Virus record (IMG/VR): IMGVR_UViG_648276651_000001 | Location: 1 to 14,152 of that record | Source of the DNA: a virus | Taxonomy: Duplodnaviria; Heunggongvirae; Uroviricota; Caudoviricetes | Direction: 5' to 3' (one strand) | DNA: 14,152 nt | Shown here: positions 1-5,969 of the stretch, piece after piece | Position numbering within the stretch: position 1 is the first letter of the stretch | Layout of the letters: each line of letters begins with the position of its first letter | Translations under genes and position numbers: made by a program | The notes under the pieces: generated by a model | Databases searched by the model: none | What the model was told of the DNA's origin: nothing | The model's input: the letters and a program-made list of their open reading frames with translations, nothing else

Positions 1-6
1 ATTGAG

Positions 7-306
7 ATGTTGCGGGCGCAGTGTCGGATCGATATTGACGATGCAACCGAAGATGAACTGCTGACGCTGTATTTCACAGCTGCTCGGCGTCGCGCAGAGA
101 ACTTCATTAATCGGAAACTGTATGAAGACTCTGTGCCTGATACCGATCCAGACGGGTTAAACATTGCTGACGATATCCTCCTGGCGCTGATGCTTCTTGT
201 TGGGCATTGGTTCAACAGCAGGGAAGAAGCTTCCGATGTAAATAAAATGAGCATTCCCTTCGGCTTCACTTCGTTGCTTGAACCCTACCGATATATCCCA
301 CTTTGA
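7..306 (+). CDS. Head-tail connector (gp6-like) protein; 5' end may extend beyond the window
   Basis: 99-aa ORF beginning MLRAQCRIDIDDATEDELLTLYFTAARRRAENF, which resembles the N-terminal region of gp6-like head-tail connector proteins. The frame is open to position 1 (codons ATT GAG precede the ATG), so the true start may be upstream. Position directly before the head-closure gene fits. Confidence 0.55.
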   Translation: MLRAQCRIDIDDATEDELLTLYFTAARRRAENFINRKLYEDSVPDTDPDGLNIADDILLALMLLVGHWFNSREEASDVNKMSIPFGFTSLLEPYRYIPL

Positions 307-375
307 GGTGATTTATGGCCTGTGAAGGGTGTCTCCGTCGGCGTGAGTGGTTAAAAAAGTGGACGAAAATAGCCT

Positions 376-573
376 ATGAACGAGCAACTGGTAAACGCGC
401 TGATAGCAGCGCTGAGAGAACAAACAACAGCACAGCGAGAGCAGACGGAAGCGATAAACCGCCTGGCTGAGTCTAACGTCGCCCTGTCCGATGTGATTAT
501 CCAGTCGCTTGCCGGCGATCTCGATGAGGCGCCAGAGCAGCAAACCTATCTGAGCGGGAAACCCGGGGGGTGA
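376..573 (+). CDS. Small hypothetical phage protein (65 aa), predicted helical
   Basis: ORF whose stop (571-573) sits 1 nt before the ATG of the next gene at 575, suggesting coupling. No recognisable family. A competing 51-aa ORF (315-470, other frame) has a better Shine-Dalgarno, so the call is uncertain. Confidence 0.35.
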   Translation: MNEQLVNALIAALREQTTAQREQTEAINRLAESNVALSDVIIQSLAGDLDEAPEQQTYLSGKPGG

Positions 574-574
574 T

Positions 575-907
575 ATGCAGGCCGGAAAATTGCGTCACAG
601 GATCACCCTGCAGGAACCGGTCAAAGAACAGAACCCGACAACGGGAGCCGTAATTAATACCTGGCGCGATGTCGCAACCCTTTGGGCCGAAGTCGCTCCT
701 TTATCCGCACGTGAGTTTATCGCCGCCCAGGCCTCTCAGGGCGAAGTTACCACCCGGATAACGATTCGTTACCGTGAGGGTGTTACCCGCAAACATCGGA
801 TCCTGTTTCGTAGCCGCATCTACAACATTGAGGGCGTTTTACCTGACCCCCGGAGCGGCAGGGAATACCTGACACTGCCGTGTTCAGAGGGGGCTAACGA
901 TGGCTGA
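575..907 (+). CDS. Phage head closure / head-tail adaptor protein (Phage_H_T_join-like)
   Basis: 110-aa protein with LRHRITLQ ... WAEV ... TTRITIRYREGVT ... RIYNIEG, matching the conserved pattern of head-tail joining proteins. GGGGG Shine-Dalgarno upstream. Its stop overlaps the next gene start. Confidence 0.7.
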   Translation: MQAGKLRHRITLQEPVKEQNPTTGAVINTWRDVATLWAEVAPLSAREFIAAQASQGEVTTRITIRYREGVTRKHRILFRSRIYNIEGVLPDPRSGREYLTLPCSEGANDG

Positions 908-2392: not shown

Positions 2393-2746
2393 ATGCAACT
2401 TACTCTCGATACGTTAAAAGAAACCGGTGCTTTTACCGGGCGTCCCGTGGAAAAAGAAATTAAGTGGAAAGGCCGTGACGGGAAAGAGCATATCGCAACC
2501 GTCTATGTGCGCCCGATGGGCTACCACACCACTAAAGCTGAACTGCTGGCGTATAACGGGAAATCGGACCCGATTGCTGAGCGCATTGCGGCGCATATTT
2601 GCGATCAGGACGGCGCCCCAGTGTTTACCGCGGCTGACATTCTTGGGACTGCTACCCCGGATCGTGGGGCGCTGGACGGACCGATTGTTATGGCCCTCCT
2701 GGCTGCAATTCATGATGTAAACGAACTGGGAAAGACTACGAGCTAA
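2393..2746 (+). CDS. Tail assembly chaperone (lambda gpG analogue)
   Basis: 117-aa ORF directly after the major tail gene. Contains the slippery heptamer G GGA AAG four codons before its stop, with an overlapping -1 frame continuing for about 100 codons. Confidence 0.7.
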   Translation: MQLTLDTLKETGAFTGRPVEKEIKWKGRDGKEHIATVYVRPMGYHTTKAELLAYNGKSDPIAERIAAHICDQDGAPVFTAADILGTATPDRGALDGPIVMALLAAIHDVNELGKTTS

Positions 2747-3042
2747 CCGGCGAGGATGAATTCTGGTGCGAACTGGTGATGAACGGCATCGGCGGCCGCA
2801 CCATTGCAGAGGCTCAGGAGCGGATGAGTCGCAGGGAATTTCTGGTTTGGCTCAAGTACCGTGAGAAGTACGGACCGCTCAATATCATGATGCGTACTGA
2901 GTGGGGGGCTTCGCTGGTGGCTTCTGTCCTGGCTAACATCAATAAGGCAAAAAACACGCCGCCGTTCAAGGTAAGTGACTTTGCACCGCACATCAACGAA
3001 GCGCCATTATCTCTGGAAGAAGCTATGAAAAGTTGGCATTGA
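2393..3042 (+). CDS. Tail assembly chaperone fusion (gpGT analogue) made by -1 frameshift at 2728-2734
   Basis: Joining the G-like frame up to the slippery site with the -1 frame gives about 216 aa. The extension (…DYELTGEDEFWCELVMNGIGG…SRREFLVWLKYREKYGPLNIMMRTEW…) has the aromatic-rich character of lambda T / DUF4035-type domains. The track ORF 2776-3042 starts at a GTG inside this extension and has no Shine-Dalgarno of its own. Confidence 0.65.
2728..2734 (+). promoter_or_regulatory. Programmed -1 ribosomal frameshift slippery site (G GGA AAG)
   Basis: In the G-like frame the codons are CTG GGA AAG (2726-2734), an X XXY YYZ heptamer identical to the lambda G/GT site. The -1 frame is open from 2716 (after TGA at 2713-2715) to the stop at 3040-3042. 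Confidence 0.75.
2913..2920 (+). other. Chi site (5'-GCTGGTGG-3')
   Basis: Exact octamer on the + strand. Confidence 0.6.
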
Positions 3043-3098
3043 TATCATTTATTTGGTTATATTCTCTCTGGGATGATTATATTGATACCGAGGGGATT

Positions 3099-3470
3099 AT
3101 GATAAAGAAAGCAGCTGTTGTTTTTACTGTAATGTTTTTAGGTGGCTGCGTTAGTGCGCCAGATAAGGCGGAGCTAAGCCGCGCCGATTATGGGAAGTTA
3201 CCTGATAATTATCAGGAAATAATTAAAAATAGTATGTCGGCGCGCCTTAAGGACCCTTATTCTGCACGATATGATTTCAATGAACCTTTCAAAGGCTGGT
3301 GCAAATCAGGATTTACAACTTATTACGGATGGTTAGTTCCTTTTACTCTTAACGCTAAAAACAGTTATGGCGGTTATGTTGGTAATAAGTCTTATCTGTA
3401 TCTTGTTAATCAAAATAGCGCCACTGACTTTACTGCATCCTTCCAAATCGGTGGGTGCGGTAAAAGTTAA
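3099..3470 (+). CDS. Predicted lipoprotein (moron between chaperone and tape measure genes)
   Basis: ATG at 3099 preceded by GAGGGG. N-terminus MIKKAAVVFTVMFLGGC is a signal peptide with lipobox L-G-G-C; Val at +2 suggests outer-membrane sorting in enterics. Two further Cys in the mature part. Visibly AT-rich relative to neighbours and followed by its own terminator. Family not recognised. Confidence 0.6.
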   Translation: MIKKAAVVFTVMFLGGCVSAPDKAELSRADYGKLPDNYQEIIKNSMSARLKDPYSARYDFNEPFKGWCKSGFTTYYGWLVPFTLNAKNSYGGYVGNKSYLYLVNQNSATDFTASFQIGGCGKS

Positions 3471-3492: not shown

Positions 3493-3517
3493 CCTCGCTC
3501 CTGCGGGGTTTTTTATT
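3493..3517 (+). terminator. Intrinsic terminator after the lipoprotein gene
   Basis: Stem CCTCGC (3493-3498), loop TCCT, stem GCGGGG (3503-3508; one G-U pair), then TTTTTTATT. Confidence 0.55.
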
Positions 3518-3533
3518 GCCTGGAGAAAATTCA

Positions 3534-5969
3534 ATGGCTGGCAAGTCCCTTGGTACGTTAACAATCGACCTGATCGCAAAAGTGGGTGGATTTGTTCAGG
3601 GTATGGACAAAGCCGAAAGATCTTCTCAAAAGTGGCGTGACCAAGTAAAAAAGGATGCTAAAGAGGTTAGTTCTTCAATCATTGCTGTGGGTGCTGCGGC
3701 GGCTACAGCAGCTGTTGGCATTGGTGCTGCTGGGTTAGCCATAGTTAAAAATACTGCACAGCAGGTTACAGAAGCTGATCGCTGGGCAAAATCTCTTAAA
3801 ATGTCCACCCAGGATTTGTTATCCTGGCAATACGCTGCTGAACAAGCCGGTTTAACCGGTGACAACATAGCCGATATTTTCAAAGACATTAATGATAAGG
3901 TCGGTGATGCGGTCCTGAATAAATCAGGTGAGGCAGCTCAGGCGCTGGATACTTTGGGGCTTTCAGCTCAGAAGCTGGCTCAGCAATCCCCAGACAAGCA
4001 GCTGATGGCAATCAGTGAAGCATTACAGAAAATCCCCACTCAGGCCGGGAAAACAAATATTCTCGAAAGCCTGGGTAATGACCTGTCAAAAATGCTGCCG
4101 TTGTTCGACAACAACAACGAGAAGCTGAAACAGTTTATCCAGCTATCAAAAGATTTTGGTGTCGCACCACCGCAAGAAGATATTGATAACCTTGTTAAGG
4201 TTAATCAGTTCTTTCAGGATATAGAGACTAGCGCCCGCGGTCTTAAAATGGAAATTGCTTCGGGGCTGGCTAAGGTTGACCTTACACCATTGCAGGATGG
4301 GCTTGATGACATTCGTGACGTCTTCACCGATCCTGCTGTTCTTCAGGGGCTATCAGACCTGGTTGGTGAAGCCATAAGCCTTGCCGGGGTTGTGGGACGT
4401 ATTGCTGGTGGCTTGGGGGCCATTGCTACTTATACCCGCTCGCGTATAGGTGCTGTATCTGGTAATTATAATGCTGCTGATGAAAGTGATATTGCACAGA
4501 GAATTGAATTCCTTAACAAACGAGGGAATCAAAGTAAGGAGCAAAAAGACGAATTAGAATTTTTAACTAAACGTCTTCAATTTCTTCGCGCGATAAAATC
4601 AAGCATGACTCCGGAGCAGGTAGATAGAGGAGCGAAAGGGCTCTCGTCTCTACTTTCTGATCTTGGCATTGATACGTCTAAAGATAATGATTTTTCGTTG
4701 GGCAAAGGGGAGTCTAACCAGAATCAGCCAAAAACAAAACCAAAAAGCAATCCGACTGACAATGCTTTTAAAAATCGACTTCTTGACTTACAAAAGCAAG
4801 CTGCACTTATTGAAACAACAGGCAAAAAAACAGCTGAAGTTACAGAGCTTGAAAAAATAAACTTCGATATAAGCAGTGGTAATCTAAAAAAACTTTCCGA
4901 AGGTCAAAAAGACCAGTTGCGAACAGCTGCAAAGTTTCTTGATTCTAAGAAGGAAGAACTTCGTCTTAATCAGGAAAATGCGAAAGTTGCCGAGTACGTT
5001 TCAGGTCTTGAAAGGCAGAATAAATTAATTAAGCAGGGATATGATAGTGAATTTATTGGGCGTTATTCTGGAGATCGGGAACGTAGCCGGATGCAAGAAC
5101 GCAACAGTATTCAGCAGGAGTATGAAGGGAATCGCGAGGATTTATTAAAGCAATACCAATCTGGTGATATTTCTAAAAGTCTTTATGACGCTGAAACTGA
5201 AGCTTTGCAAGATGCACTGAATAAGAGGTTAGAAATTCAAAATGATTATTATAAGCAACAGGATGAATTACAGAATGATTACAGTGCTGGGTTAATTTCT
5301 GGTTTTGCTGCACAGGCTACTGCTGCGATGGATTTGTACTCCACAATGCAGCAAGTTGGGGCGCAAACATTCAGCAGCATGACCGACATGATTATAACTT
5401 GGGCAGAAACTGGAAAGTTGAACGCTCAAGATTTTGCAGCGACCTTTATACAGTCTGTAGGTGCGGCAATGCTGCAATATGCCGCTGCTCAGGTAGCAAT
5501 GGCGGCGCTTAATGCCTTCACTCAATGGATAGGTGTTCCTTACGTTGGCCCGGCGGTGGCTCCGGCTCAAGCAATTGCAGCAGCTGCAGCAGCTGGCGTA
5601 TTCATGACGGCGATCGGGTCGGCATTGCACGGCCAGGCTCACGACGGTATCGACTCTGTGCCTGAAACAGGAACTTGGCTCCTGCAGAAAGGTGAGCGCG
5701 TTACGACAGCTAAAACCAGCGCCAAACTTGACGCCACTCTGGATCGAGTTGCAAACCAGTCAACAGGCGGCGGCGCGATTTATTCACCCACAATCAATAT
5801 CCCCATAAATGGTAACCCTTCCGATGCGACAGTAGCCCTCGTGCGCAAAGCCGCTGCTGAAGGTGCTGAGCGCGGCTACCGAAAAGCTGTCAACTCGGTG
5901 ACTACTGGGCAAGGTGATCTACACAGGGCACTTATGGTGAAAACCAACTCGGGGAGGAAAATTCGCTGA
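3534..5969 (+). CDS. Tail tape measure protein
   Basis: 811-aa ORF starting at ATG 3534 (GGAG at 3522-3525), not the TTG at 3516. Ala/Gly-rich N-terminal segment, long coiled-coil middle and hydrophobic Ala-rich C-terminal part are typical of lambda-family tape measure proteins. Stop overlaps the next start (TGATG). Confidence 0.85.
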   Translation: MAGKSLGTLTIDLIAKVGGFVQGMDKAERSSQKWRDQVKKDAKEVSSSIIAVGAAAATAAVGIGAAGLAIVKNTAQQVTEADRWAKSLKMSTQDLLSWQYAAEQAGLTGDNIADIFKDINDKVGDAVLNKSGEAAQALDTLGLSAQKLAQQSPDKQLMAISEALQKIPTQAGKTNILESLGNDLSKMLPLFDNNNEKLKQFIQLSKDFGVAPPQEDIDNLVKVNQFFQDIETSARGLKMEIASGLAKVDLTPLQDGLDDIRDVFTDPAVLQGLSDLVGEAISLAGVVGRIAGGLGAIATYTRSRIGAVSGNYNAADESDIAQRIEFLNKRGNQSKEQKDELEFLTKRLQFLRAIKSSMTPEQVDRGAKGLSSLLSDLGIDTSKDNDFSLGKGESNQNQPKTKPKSNPTDNAFKNRLLDLQKQAALIETTGKKTAEVTELEKINFDISSGNLKKLSEGQKDQLRTAAKFLDSKKEELRLNQENAKVAEYVSGLERQNKLIKQGYDSEFIGRYSGDRERSRMQERNSIQQEYEGNREDLLKQYQSGDISKSLYDAETEALQDALNKRLEIQNDYYKQQDELQNDYSAGLISGFAAQATAAMDLYSTMQQVGAQTFSSMTDMIITWAETGKLNAQDFAATFIQSVGAAMLQYAAAQVAMAALNAFTQWIGVPYVGPAVAPAQAIAAAAAAGVFMTAIGSALHGQAHDGIDSVPETGTWLLQKGERVTTAKTSAKLDATLDRVANQSTGGGAIYSPTINIPINGNPSDATVALVRKAAAEGAERGYRKAVNSVTTGQGDLHRALMVKTNSGRKIR
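4404..4411 (+). other. Chi site (5'-GCTGGTGG-3')
   Basis: Exact octamer on the + strand. Confidence 0.6.

What the first reader, a model, noticed from the sequence alone, without database searches (positions are those of the whole stretch)
307..573. Ambiguous small-gene content between connector and head-closure genes
Seen in sequence: two mutually exclusive small ORFs occupy this region. One (376-573, 65 aa) is helical-looking and abuts the head-closure ATG, but has a weak ribosome-binding site. The other (315-470, 51 aa, MACEGCLRRREWLKKW…) has a strong GAGGTGA Shine-Dalgarno 5 nt upstream and a CxxC pair but low-complexity composition. Which one is translated, or whether both are, cannot be settled from sequence.
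Basis: seen in the sequence. Interest (0 to 1): 0.2.

Follow-up and report, generated by a model that had tools for sequence, protein, structure and literature searches.

The report
Two overlapping small phage genes
The stretch between the head-tail adaptor and head-closure genes holds two real, partly overlapping small genes: an HK022 gp8-like helical protein and an unannotated Cys-x-x-Cys mini-protein that almost always sits just upstream of it in HK97-type phages. Their function is unknown.

Summary
Both ORFs exist as described: 315-470 (51 aa) and 376-573 (65 aa). They are not alternatives, because comparative data show that both are coding.

- **376-573** is the HK022 gp8 homologue (phrog_2612, E 1e-25). 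Its family holds about 1,480 protein clusters. It is predicted as one long helix plus an acidic tail ending in YLSGKP.
- **315-470** is never annotated in enteric phages or E. coli prophages. Its first roughly 24-28 codons (M-x-C-x-x-C-x-x-R-R-E-W-L-K-K-W-x-x-I-A-Y-E-R-A) are kept from Klebsiella and E. coli to Pseudomonas and Vibrio phages.
  - Divergence falls mainly on third codon positions. pN/pS is 0.28, 0.31 and 0.03 in three lineages, against more than 1 in the other two frames.
  - It belongs to the family of Pseudomonas phage D3 orf92 (phrog_19728).
  - Its overlapping tail evolves neutrally.
- **The overlap.** The gp8 ATG is embedded in the Tyr-Glu codons of the Cys-x-x-Cys gene.
- **Genomic setting.** The pair is a portable cassette. 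It sits either between Ad1 and Hc1 (enteric phages) or directly upstream of the HNH endonuclease and terminase genes (Pseudomonas, Vibrio).

A role in DNA packaging or head completion is inferred from position only. HK022 has lost the Cys-x-x-Cys gene, so that gene is dispensable there. This is modestly interesting: an overlooked gene, not a new kind of system.

The parts
1..306 (+). 3' part of the head-tail adaptor Ad1 gene (Phage_connect_1). Its TGA stop (304-306) lies inside the SD of the next gene.
   Evidence: Pfam PF05135 E 1.4e-12 and phrog_40 E 6e-30. In vB_EcoS-733R5 the annotated CDS starts 12 nt upstream of the window start.
305..312 (+). Shine-Dalgarno sequence GAGGTGAT for the Cys-x-x-Cys gene
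   Evidence: 8-nt match to the anti-SD complement, 2 nt before the ATG at 315. An SD-like match of at least 4 nt is present upstream of this start in 90 of 114 distinct start contexts.
315..470 (+). Unannotated small gene (51 aa) encoding a Cys-x-x-Cys mini-protein of the phrog_19728 / D3 orf92 family
   Evidence: This frame is open in 24/24 distinct variants, while the other frames carry stops in 24/24 and 17/24. pN/pS is 0.28 against 1.10 and 1.23 in the other frames. The result is replicated in Pseudomonas prophages (0.31) and D3-type phages (0.03). phrog_19728 E 1.9e-5.
315..398 (+). Conserved core of the Cys-x-x-Cys protein (codons 1-28). Cys3 is at 321-323, Cys6 at 330-332, Trp12 at 348-350 and Trp16 at 360-362. 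Predicted as a basic amphipathic helix capped by the Cys pair.
   Evidence: C3, C6, E11, W12, W16, A20, E22 and R23 are invariant across enteric, Pseudomonas, Vibrio and D3 versions. Synonymous codon variation occurs at invariant residues. AF2 gives a helix at residues 4-25 with pLDDT 74-86.
353..359 (+). A_AAA_AAG heptamer in the frame of the Cys-x-x-Cys gene (Leu-Lys-Lys codons). It looks like a -1 slippery site but is not conserved as one.
   Evidence: Replaced by AAA AAA, AAA AAC, ACA AAG or AAG AAG in relatives. The -1 frame runs only 6 codons to the TGA at 377-379. Two loci (L033, L071) carry A7 here.
359..363 (+). Weak SD-like GTGGA for the gp8-like gene, formed by the invariant Trp16 codon and the following codon
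   Evidence: Lies 12 nt upstream of the ATG at 376. GGAG at 11 nt is seen in the same place in Pseudomonas and Vibrio versions.
376..573 (+). HK022 gp8-like gene (65 aa, phrog_2612). Long helix (residues 3-49), acidic linker, C-terminal YLSGKPGG motif.
   Evidence: phrog_2612 E 1.4e-25 over the full length. 429 and 1,479 homologous clusters. Annotated as a hypothetical protein in HK022, mEp235, KPP5665-2 and vB_EcoS-733R5. AF2 pLDDT 85.
376..470 (+). 95-nt out-of-frame overlap. The gp8 ATG sits inside the TAT-GAA (Tyr21-Glu22) codons of the Cys-x-x-Cys gene.
   Evidence: The same embedded start is found in 242 of 296 loci. The tail of the Cys-x-x-Cys ORF (codons 30-51) has pN/pS 0.92. gp8 synonymous diversity is lowest in codons 2-9: 0.15, against 0.33 for codons 10-31 and 0.50 for codons 32-48.
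575..907 (+). Head closure protein Hc1 gene, starting 1 nt after the gp8-like stop
   Evidence: Pfam Phage_HCP E 1.9e-35 and phrog_25 E 1.8e-40.

Best explanation
The region holds two genuine protein-coding genes that overlap out of frame and are inherited together as a two-gene cassette in the late operon of HK97-type siphophages.

**Gene 1 (315-470)** is translated from a strong SD. Its product has a conserved core of about 25-28 residues: an N-terminal Cys-x-x-Cys that caps a basic, Trp-containing amphipathic helix. The rest is an unconstrained, probably disordered tail whose sequence is dictated by the overlapping gene.

**Gene 2 (376-573)** is the HK022 gp8 homologue. It is predicted as one long helix, probably oligomerising as a coiled coil, followed by an acidic linker and a conserved Y-L/M-S/D-G-x-P end. 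Its ATG is embedded in the Tyr-Glu codons of gene 1 and has only a weak SD.

**Shown:** both frames are conserved as coding; the two genes co-occur; the overlap geometry is conserved; there is no separate promoter or terminator.

**Inferred:**
- (a) Ribosomes translating gene 1 keep the gene 2 start accessible, so the two products are made in a coordinated way.
- (b) The two helical proteins act together.
- (c) They assist DNA packaging or head completion. The basis is that the same pair sits either between the adaptor Ad1 and the closure protein Hc1, or immediately upstream of, and coupled to, the HNH endonuclease-terS-terL genes.
- (d) The Cys pair binds a metal or forms a disulfide.

I hold the two-gene reading with high confidence and the packaging/head-completion role with low confidence (about 0.3).
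For: **gp8-like gene**
- Full-length phrog_2612 match, E 1.4e-25.
- 429 clusters of fixed length of about 65 aa; 1,479 clusters with a profile.
- Annotated in HK022 (gp8), mEp235, KPP5665-2 and vB_EcoS-733R5.

**Cys-x-x-Cys gene**
- The 61 nt upstream of the gp8 ATG always read ATG plus 20 codons. This frame is open in 24/24 distinct variants, while the other frames are closed in 24/24 and 17/24.
- M1, C3, C6, R9, E11, W12, W16, I19 and A20 are invariant, with synonymous variation TGT/TGC, CGG/AGG/AGA/CGC/CGA, GAA/GAG, ATA/ATT and GCC/GCT; the mostly-Leu codon 13 switches TTA/CTG.
- pN/pS is 0.28 in frame against 1.10 and 1.23 out of frame. It is 0.31 against 1.42 and 1.61 in Pseudomonas prophages, and 0.03 against 4.4 and 12.6 in D3-type phages.
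- Window versus PAJU2: 69% nt identity but 18/24 aa identity, with 14 of 22 differences at third positions.
- tblastn finds the peptide in Pseudomonas and Vibrio phages.
- D3 orf92, an annotated stand-alone 41-aa gene, is the same family: phrog_19728 E 4e-30 for D3 and 1.9e-5 for the window.

**Cassette**
- Every Cys-x-x-Cys ORF inspected is followed by a phrog_2612-type ORF.
- Among loci retrieved with gp8 alone, 86/89 enteric and 74/80 Pseudomonas loci carry an intact Cys-x-x-Cys ORF. The rest are broken or cut by a contig end.
- The embedded start occurs in 242/296 loci.

**Context**
- Of 303 loci, 171 have Hc1 just downstream and 126 have an HNH endonuclease within 1.5 kb, 62 of them with a terS match as well (annotations).
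- No promoter on the coding strand and no terminator was found in 1-1000.

**Structure**
- gp8: helix at residues 3-49, pLDDT 85.
- Cys-x-x-Cys protein: helix at residues 4-25, pLDDT 74-86, with a low-confidence tail.
Against: - There are no expression data of any kind; translation of 315-470 is inferred from evolution only.
- Gene finders almost never call it (9 proteins), and no record annotates it in enteric phages.
- HK022, HK140 and mEpX2 have lost the start codon and first Cys. HK022 also carries an internal stop, and a few per cent of other loci are disrupted. The protein is therefore dispensable at least in some backgrounds.
- The reduced synonymous variation in gp8 codons 2-8 is only suggestive (Fisher P = 0.08) and could reflect constraints on translation initiation.
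- The functional assignment rests only on gene position.
- No Pfam, NCBIfam or PDB relative was found.
- Both models are single helices, so nothing can be learned from fold comparison.
- Counts of co-occurrence come from loci retrieved with one or the other gene and are not an unbiased census.
Confidence: 0.8

Rival explanations
1. Only the gp8-like ORF (376-573) is a gene. The 315-470 ORF is a chance open frame, and the conserved upstream 61 nt are a non-coding leader or ribosome-loading region for gp8.
For: Gene finders and curators annotate only gp8. ORFs of this size in alternative frames are frequent in the window. The C-terminal 22 codons evolve neutrally in this frame (pN/pS 0.92). HK022 lacks the ORF.
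Against: - Third-position-biased divergence and pN/pS of 0.03-0.31 appear only in this frame, in three lineages.
- The ATG, both Cys and both Trp are invariant across genera despite 60-69% nt identity.
- The other two frames are closed.
- The homologue is a stand-alone annotated gene in D3.
- No RNA structure signal was found (z = -0.13).
Confidence: 0.05
2. The 315 ORF is translated, but mainly as a cis-acting device. Its role would be to bring ribosomes from a strong SD across the weak gp8 start (translational coupling), with the peptide having no function of its own.
For: A strong SD at 305-312 contrasts with a weak GTGGA for gp8. The gp8 start is embedded in the upstream ORF in 242/296 loci. 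In HK022 the lost ORF is replaced by another upstream ORF (gp7) that ends in ATGA on the gp8 start, and in D3-type phages the two genes share a stop-start overlap. Both fit selection for coupling.
Against: A pure coupling device would not need invariant Cys, Trp, Glu and Arg residues, nor pN/pS as low as 0.03. Ribosomes of the upstream ORF terminate 95 nt or more past the gp8 start, which is not the classical termination-reinitiation geometry.
Confidence: 0.1
3. The two frames are joined by programmed ribosomal frameshifting or transcriptional slippage at the A-run (353-359) or within the overlap. This would yield a Cys-x-x-Cys-gp8 fusion or a truncated product.
For: A_AAA_AAG lies in the correct frame for a -1 shift. 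Two loci carry A7 at this spot (L033, L071). One database protein (P0090) and two metagenomic loci (L268, L270) read as in-frame fusions.
Against: - The heptamer is not conserved (AAA AAA, AAA AAC, ACA AAG, AAG AAG).
- A -1 shift gives only 6 more codons and a stop at 377-379, not a fusion, and gp8 lies in the +1 frame.
- No conserved +1 site exists.
- D3-type phages encode the two proteins as separate tandem genes.
- The fusions are rare singletons consistent with indels or sequencing errors.
Confidence: 0.03
4. Both genes are real, but the cassette is an accessory (moron-like) module unrelated to virion assembly, for example host takeover, anti-defence or superinfection exclusion. It would simply lodge at module junctions of the late operon.
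For: - It occupies two different positions, both at mosaic joints. DNA homology with relatives starts at 315 or 339, and the head modules upstream differ.
- It is absent from many HK97-like phages: only 88 of 50,697 phage records hit.
- It is dispensable in HK022.
- Small, fast-moving genes of unknown function are typical accessory genes.
Against: - It has no promoter or terminator of its own.
- It is tightly packed and start/stop-coupled to Hc1 (1-nt gap) or to the HNH endonuclease (overlapping stop/start; ORF coordinates, translations).
- Both observed positions are next to packaging or head-completion genes in essentially all of the 303 loci, not scattered among early, lysis or tail-fibre regions.
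- I did not scan the PADLOC library, so there is no test against known defence families.
Confidence: 0.25

Closest known systems
Pseudomonas phage D3 orf92 / orf93 (phrog_19728 / phrog_2612) and the PAJU2 ORF077 region
   Same: Homologous pair in the same order. A Cys-x-x-Cys mini-protein with C..C..REW...W...A.ER comes first, then a helical protein ending in YLSG.P. Both are in the late operon of an HK97-type phage. In PAJU2, IME307 and many Pseudomonas prophages the second gene's ATG is embedded in the same Tyr-Glu codons.
   Different: In D3 the two genes are tandem with only an 8-14 nt overlap, and orf92 is annotated. The cassette lies upstream of the HNH endonuclease and terminase genes, not between Ad1 and Hc1. 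In the window the first gene is unannotated and overlaps the second by 95 nt.
Escherichia phage HK022 gp8 (NP_037669)
   Same: Direct homologue of 376-573: 65 aa, 82% identity, same position immediately upstream of Hc1.
   Different: HK022 has lost the partner gene. A truncated Hc1 fragment (gp7, 78 aa) is fused into the remnant in another frame and ends in ATGA on the gp8 start. The remnant also has an internal stop.
Out-of-frame overlapping phage gene pairs such as lambda Rz/Rz1 (from general knowledge, not tested here)
   Same: Two proteins are read from one stretch of late-operon DNA in different frames, are co-inherited, and plausibly act together.
   Different: Rz1 lies wholly inside Rz and is a lipoprotein with a signal sequence. 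Here the overlap is partial, the conserved part of the upstream protein lies almost entirely outside the overlap, and there is no lipobox or signal peptide.
Cys-x-x-Cys at the N-terminus of a helix in thioredoxin-fold proteins (ArsC/Spx) and in Pfam DUF1289
   Same: The local motif C-x-x-C-x-[RK]-x-[RK]-x-W-L at the start of a predicted helix resembles ACSTCQKAKKWL of an ArsC-family protein and the second Cys pair of DUF1289.
   Different: The matches are not significant (E 0.91 and 0.24, the latter below Pfam's cut-off). The protein is far too short for a thioredoxin fold and has two, not four, cysteines. This is a resemblance only.
HK97-type packaging module (HNH endonuclease gp74 + terS + terL); lambda gpFI as a positional analogue (from general knowledge)
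   Same: The cassette is found only in phages with this module: mEp235 has the HNH gene at its right end, and the Pseudomonas and Vibrio versions sit directly upstream of it. Like lambda FI, the enteric version lies between the capsid and head-tail joining genes.
   Different: There is no sequence or structural similarity to any known packaging factor, and no experimental link.

Membership tests
phrog_2612 (HK022 gp8-like small helical protein) | Full-length profile match | tested here: met
   E 1.4e-25, residues 1-63 against profile positions 1-64 of 66. 82% identity to HK022 gp8.
phrog_2612 (HK022 gp8-like small helical protein) | Conserved residues and C-terminal Y-L/M-S/D-G-x-P motif | tested here: met
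   M1, E3, Q20, Q23, R29, L37 and Y58 are invariant over 67 diverse members. The window has YLSGKPGG.
phrog_19728 (D3 orf92-like Cys-x-x-Cys mini-protein) | Profile match | tested here: met
   E 1.9e-5, residues 3-27 against profile positions 4-28 of 41. Only the core matches and the tail does not. D3 orf92 itself scores E 4e-30.
phrog_19728 (D3 orf92-like Cys-x-x-Cys mini-protein) | Invariant C-x-x-C ... E-W ... W ... A-x-E-R pattern, followed by a phrog_2612 gene | tested here: met
   C3, C6, E11, W12, W16, A20, E22 and R23 are invariant in the alignment of 9 diverse versions. A gp8-like gene follows in all inspected loci.
Protein-coding gene under purifying selection (for 315-470) | pN/pS well below 1 in its own frame only, with the frame open in relatives | tested here: met
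   Met for codons 2-20: 0.28, 0.31 and 0.03 in three lineages, against more than 1 in the other frames. Open in 24/24 variants. Codons 30-51 give 0.92, so the criterion is not met for the tail.
Protein-coding gene (for 315-470) | Direct evidence of translation | not testable with these tools
   No ribosome profiling or proteomics is available. Literature searches found nothing on this ORF.
Programmed -1 ribosomal frameshift site (dnaX or G-GT type) | Conserved in-frame slippery heptamer leading into a long alternative frame | tested here: not met
   A_AAA_AAG is present in the window (353-359) but replaced in relatives. The -1 frame ends after 6 codons.
Classical stop-start translational coupling (ATGA/TGATG) | The upstream ORF terminates at or next to the downstream start | tested here: not met
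   In the window the upstream ORF ends 95 nt past the gp8 ATG. The feature is met for gp8 to Hc1 (TGAtATG at 571-577), for HK022 gp7 to gp8, and for D3 orf92 to orf93.
Moron (autonomous accessory gene in a late operon) | Own promoter and terminator flanking the insert | tested here: not met
   No coding-strand promoter-like site and no terminator-like site in 1-1000. Intergenic gaps are 8 nt and 1 nt.
Pfam DUF1289 | Score above the gathering cut-off; four conserved cysteines | tested here: not met
   11.7 bits against a cut-off of 27, E 0.24. Only two Cys are present.
Zinc-binding or redox-active Cys-x-x-Cys protein | Metal content or a reversible disulfide | not testable with these tools
   Only the invariant Cys pair at the predicted helix N-terminus is seen.

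The most novel reading that the evidence does not exclude
The Cys-x-x-Cys mini-protein and the gp8-like coiled-coil protein form a so far unrecognised two-subunit accessory factor of the HK97-type packaging and head-completion machinery (HNH endonuclease, terminase, portal, adaptor). On this reading the nested overlap fixes their co-expression. The cassette could then move between the 'before HNH-terminase' and 'between Ad1 and Hc1' positions because both bracket the same assembly step.
Probability: 0.3. Interest if true: 0.55.

Novelty: new member of a known kind. Interest (0 to 1): 0.38.

Why it matters
- **An annotation gap.** A conserved gene is missing from every enteric phage and E. coli prophage record inspected in this group, including HK022-like reference phages and PGAP output. 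The 60-70 nt 'gap' between Ad1 and gp8 is coding, and the gp8 start lies inside another gene.
- **A functional lead.** Two PHROG families of unknown function (19728 and 2612) are shown to be an obligate-looking pair tied to HK97-type packaging and neck genes. That gives a concrete handle for testing what they do.
- **A caution for engineering.** Recoding, deleting or tagging the 5' end of gp8 would also alter the tail of the Cys-x-x-Cys gene (codons 21-51).
- **Scale.** The scientific surprise is modest. Overlapping small genes in phage late operons are a familiar phenomenon, and no new mechanism is demonstrated.

Tried and rejected
- **Programmed -1 frameshift at A_AAA_AAG (353-359).** Rejected: the heptamer is not conserved and the -1 frame ends after 6 codons.
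- **Conserved RNA structure around the two starts.** None found; the MFE z-score is -0.13.
- **N-terminal extension of gp8.** Rejected: the gp8 frame is closed upstream of the ATG in 24/24 variants. The longer database proteins are miscalled starts or read-throughs.
- **Family and structure searches.** Pfam, NCBIfam and PDB sequence searches for both proteins, and Pfam for the long gp8-like forms, gave nothing significant.
- **Fold comparison.** Not run. Both AF2 models are single helices, so any match would be meaningless.
- **Representative-library HMM search with the Cys-x-x-Cys core.** Not run. A 25-residue domain scoring about 25 bits cannot reach significance in 1.8 billion sequences.
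- **Literature.** Searches on HK022 gp8, D3 orf92, the HNH/terminase system, overlapping genes, KPP5665-2 and mEp235 found nothing. The only 'orf92' hit is an unrelated gene number in another study.
- **Dual-coding constraint on gp8 codons 2-8.** Only suggestive (pS 0.15 against 0.50; Fisher P = 0.08).
- **Group-2 gp8-like pN/pS beyond codon 9.** Discarded, because indels break the ungapped comparison.
Full report
**1. The observation**

The sequence holds both ORFs exactly as described: 315-470 (51 aa, MACEGCLRRREWLKKWTKIAYERATGKR...) and 376-573 (65 aa).

They overlap by 95 nt in different frames. Upstream, the adaptor (Ad1, Phage_connect_1) gene ends at 306. Downstream, the head-closure (Hc1, Phage_HCP) gene starts at 575.

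The SD for 315 is GAGGTGAT (305-312), an 8-nt anti-SD match that overlaps the Ad1 stop. The start at 376 has only GTGGA, 12 nt upstream.

Small corrections: the SD spacing is 2-3 nt rather than 5, and only the last 22 or so residues of the 51-aa ORF are low in complexity. An ORF of this size in an alternative frame is not unusual in itself. The question is settled by comparison with relatives.

**2. The 65-aa ORF is the HK022 gp8 homologue**

- It matches phrog_2612 over its full length (E 1.4e-25).
- It is annotated as a hypothetical protein at the same place in vB_EcoS-733R5, KPP5665-2, HK022 (gp8) and mEp235.
- It has 429 homologous 90%-identity clusters, almost all of 65 aa, and 1,479 when searched with a profile that includes Pseudomonas members.
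- AlphaFold2 with a 67-sequence alignment gives one continuous helix at residues 3-49 (mean pLDDT 85), followed by a low-confidence acidic stretch and the conserved YLSGKPGG end.
- No Pfam, NCBIfam or PDB relative exists.

**3. The 51-aa ORF is also coding, at least over its first 20-28 codons**

I collected loci with gp8 as the only query from genomes and viral contigs.

- **Fixed geometry.** The 61 nt before the gp8 ATG always read ATG plus 20 codons.
- **Only this frame is open.** It is open in 24/24 distinct variants. The gp8 frame and the third frame carry stops in 24/24 and 17/24.
- **Invariant residues with synonymous change.** M1, C3, C6, R9, E11, W12, W16, I19 and A20 never change. 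Their degenerate codons do vary synonymously: TGT/TGC, CGG/AGG/AGA/CGC/CGA, GAA/GAG, ATA/ATT and GCC/GCT; at the mostly-Leu codon 13, TTA and CTG alternate.
- **Purifying selection in this frame only.** The table gives pairwise pN/pS for the N-terminal core (codons 2-20; codons 2-25 in D3-type phages).

| Lineage | Own frame | Other two frames |
|---|---|---|
| Enteric phages | 0.28 | 1.10, 1.23 |
| Pseudomonas prophages | 0.31 | 1.42, 1.61 |
| D3-type phages | 0.03 | 4.4, 12.6 |

- **Peptide conserved beyond DNA similarity.** The window and Pseudomonas phage PAJU2 share 69% of nucleotides but 18 of 24 residues, and 14 of the 22 differences are at third positions.
- **No RNA structure signal** in the leader (z = -0.13).
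- **The tail is not constrained.** Codons 30-51, which lie in the overlap, have pN/pS 0.92 in this frame. The tail varies in length (51-83 aa) and composition between lineages.
- **Weak hint of dual coding.** gp8's own synonymous diversity is lowest in codons 2-9 (0.15, against 0.33 for codons 10-31 and 0.50 for codons 32-48). That fits constraint on '...YERATGKR', but the test is weak (P = 0.08).
- **Predicted shape.** AlphaFold2 predicts a helix at residues 4-25 (pLDDT 74-86) with the Cys pair at its N-terminal cap, and a low-confidence tail.

**4. The peptide belongs to a catalogued family and is half of a two-gene cassette**

The window ORF hits phrog_19728 (E 1.9e-5, core only). That family is Pseudomonas phage D3 orf92, an annotated 41-aa stand-alone gene (E 4e-30).

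tblastn with the 28-residue core finds it in 88 phage records, including Pseudomonas (PAJU2, IME307, D3, CF121c, PseuP_224) and Vibrio anguillarum phages.

In every case inspected the next gene is a phrog_2612 protein (E 3e-13 to 7e-25), or a long form carrying an extra N-terminal domain (phrog_9736, phrog_31796).

There are two arrangements:
- **Embedded start (242 of 296 loci).** The second gene's ATG sits inside the Tyr-Glu codons (TAT GAR) of '...IAYERA', exactly as in the window.
- **Tandem (51 D3-type loci).** The genes lie in tandem, with an 8-14 nt overlap in the examples listed.

Going the other way, loci retrieved with gp8-like proteins alone carry an intact Cys-x-x-Cys ORF in 86 of 89 enteric cases and 74 of 80 Pseudomonas cases. 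The exceptions are indels, a nonsense codon, a deletion, or contig ends.

The one clear natural loss is the HK022/HK140/mEpX2 lineage. There a truncated Hc1 fragment ('gp7', 78 aa) has been recombined into the ORF. It removes the start codon and the first Cys and reads the remnant in another frame, down to an ATGA on the gp8 start. HK022 also has an internal stop in the old frame.

**5. Genomic setting**

Of 303 loci with the Cys-x-x-Cys ORF:
- 171 have Hc1 immediately downstream, usually with Ad1 upstream. This is the enteric setting.
- 126 have an HNH endonuclease within 1.5 kb downstream, 62 of them with a match to terS as well. This is the Pseudomonas and Vibrio setting (annotated examples show terS and terL following).
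- Of the remaining six, five are cut by a contig end and one shows only a terS match.

In the Pseudomonas prophage form the gp8-like stop overlaps the HNH start. In the window the gp8 stop is 1 nt from the Hc1 start.

The enteric carrier checked, mEp235, also has the HK97-type HNH gene at its right end.

There is no promoter on the coding strand and no terminator in 1-1000.

DNA homology with relatives begins at 315 or 339, and the head modules upstream differ between otherwise identical copies. The cassette start is therefore a mosaic joint.

**6. How it most likely works**

*Shown:*
- Two conserved coding frames.
- Near-universal co-occurrence.
- A conserved embedded start.
- No autonomous transcription signals.

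*Inferred:*
- Both genes are translated from the late polycistronic mRNA.
- The strong SD at 305-312 drives the Cys-x-x-Cys gene.
- Ribosomes crossing 376 keep the weakly signalled gp8 start open. Its GGA(G) is supplied by the invariant Trp16 codon. The two products are therefore made together.
- The two single-helix proteins probably associate. The invariant Cys pair at a helix N-terminus suggests metal binding between subunits or a disulfide.
- Both observed positions flank the packaging and head-completion steps of HK97-type phages, so a role as an accessory factor in that step is the best functional guess. I put it at about 0.3. A moron-like accessory function unrelated to assembly remains a serious rival at about 0.25.
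- The loss in HK022 shows that the Cys-x-x-Cys protein is not universally essential.

**7. Comparison with what is known**

- 376-573 is a member of phrog_2612 (HK022 gp8).
- 315-470 is a member, through its core, of phrog_19728 (D3 orf92).
- It is not a -1 frameshift site, not a classical stop-start coupled pair, not a moron with its own signals, and not a DUF1289 or thioredoxin-fold protein (see the membership table).
- The general phenomenon of out-of-frame overlapping, co-functioning late genes is familiar from pairs such as lambda Rz/Rz1 (general knowledge).

What is new here:
- The gene is unannotated in the enteric phage and prophage records inspected.
- The pairing of two 'unknown function' PHROGs.
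- The conserved nested start.
- The link to HNH/terminase and to Ad1/Hc1.

**8. Verdict**

The 'either/or' interpretation is replaced by 'both': a conserved overlapping two-gene cassette. Novelty is that of a new, overlooked member of known families. Interest is modest (0.38). The most novel reading not excluded is an unrecognised two-subunit accessory factor of HK97-type packaging or head completion (p about 0.3).

Noticed in passing
L003 (HK022) 1305-1541; corresponds to window ~339-379 at its 3' end: HK022 'gp7' (78 aa, annotated head closure Hc1) looks like the N-terminal fragment of a second, different Hc1 gene. Recombination has joined it into the Cys-x-x-Cys ORF, so its last ~15 codons read that ORF's DNA in another frame and end in ATGA on the gp8 start. 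It is probably a recombination scar rather than a functional head-closure protein.
   Followed up: partly
L033 and L071 (IMG/VR), position equivalent to window 353-359: Two loci have A7 instead of A6 in the Leu-Lys-Lys run. This shifts the Cys-x-x-Cys ORF into the frame that stops at the TGA overlapping the gp8 ATG (product ...EWLKKVDENSL). It could be a homopolymer sequencing error or real slippage-prone variation.
   Followed up: no
P0090 (ENA, 85 aa); L268/L270; L299; L312: There are rare in-frame fusions of the Cys-x-x-Cys N-terminus to gp8 (P0090, L268/L270), plus one nonsense (L299) and one frameshifted (L312) copy. This fits occasional decay or assembly errors, and none is conserved.
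   Followed up: partly
L284, L290, L310 (Pseudomonas viral contigs), ~250-450 nt upstream of the gp8-like match: In three loci the ATG embedded in the Cys-x-x-Cys gene opens a different ~97-aa ORF (MSEHNNSL... then a beta-rich-looking segment). The gp8-like helix gene follows as a separate ORF, so an extra gene or domain has been inserted into the cassette. Long gp8-like forms (phrog_9736, phrog_31796) also carry an added N-terminal domain.
   Followed up: partly
window 3033-3470 (+): An ORF of 123-145 aa (phrog_2320, unknown function, no Pfam hit) sits between the tail assembly chaperone T segment (2776-3042) and the tape measure gene (3516-5969). That is an unusual place for an extra gene. 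It is also called in relatives (L342, L343 and L345, 5724-6095).
   Followed up: partly
window 2393-3042 (+): The tail assembly chaperone (phrog_1749, 2393-2746) and the downstream Phage_tail_T-like ORF (2776-3042) lie in different frames. This is the usual G/GT arrangement expected to use a -1 frameshift; I did not look for the slippery site.
   Followed up: no
window 13253-14074 (-): A minus-strand ORF (273 aa) downstream of the tail fibre genes has weak similarity to O-antigen polymerase/ligase (Wzy_C E 1.5e-6, below the Pfam cut-off). It is a possible lysogenic-conversion (serotype-modifying) gene.
   Followed up: no
window 315-339 and L342-L345 2931-3001: The start of the Cys-x-x-Cys gene is a mosaic joint. 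Identical downstream modules are combined with different portal, protease (S78 or ClpP), capsid and Ad1 modules. DNA homology to Klebsiella and HK022-like phages begins at 315 or 339, while the peptide M-x-C-x-G-C is kept on both sides of the joint.
   Followed up: partly
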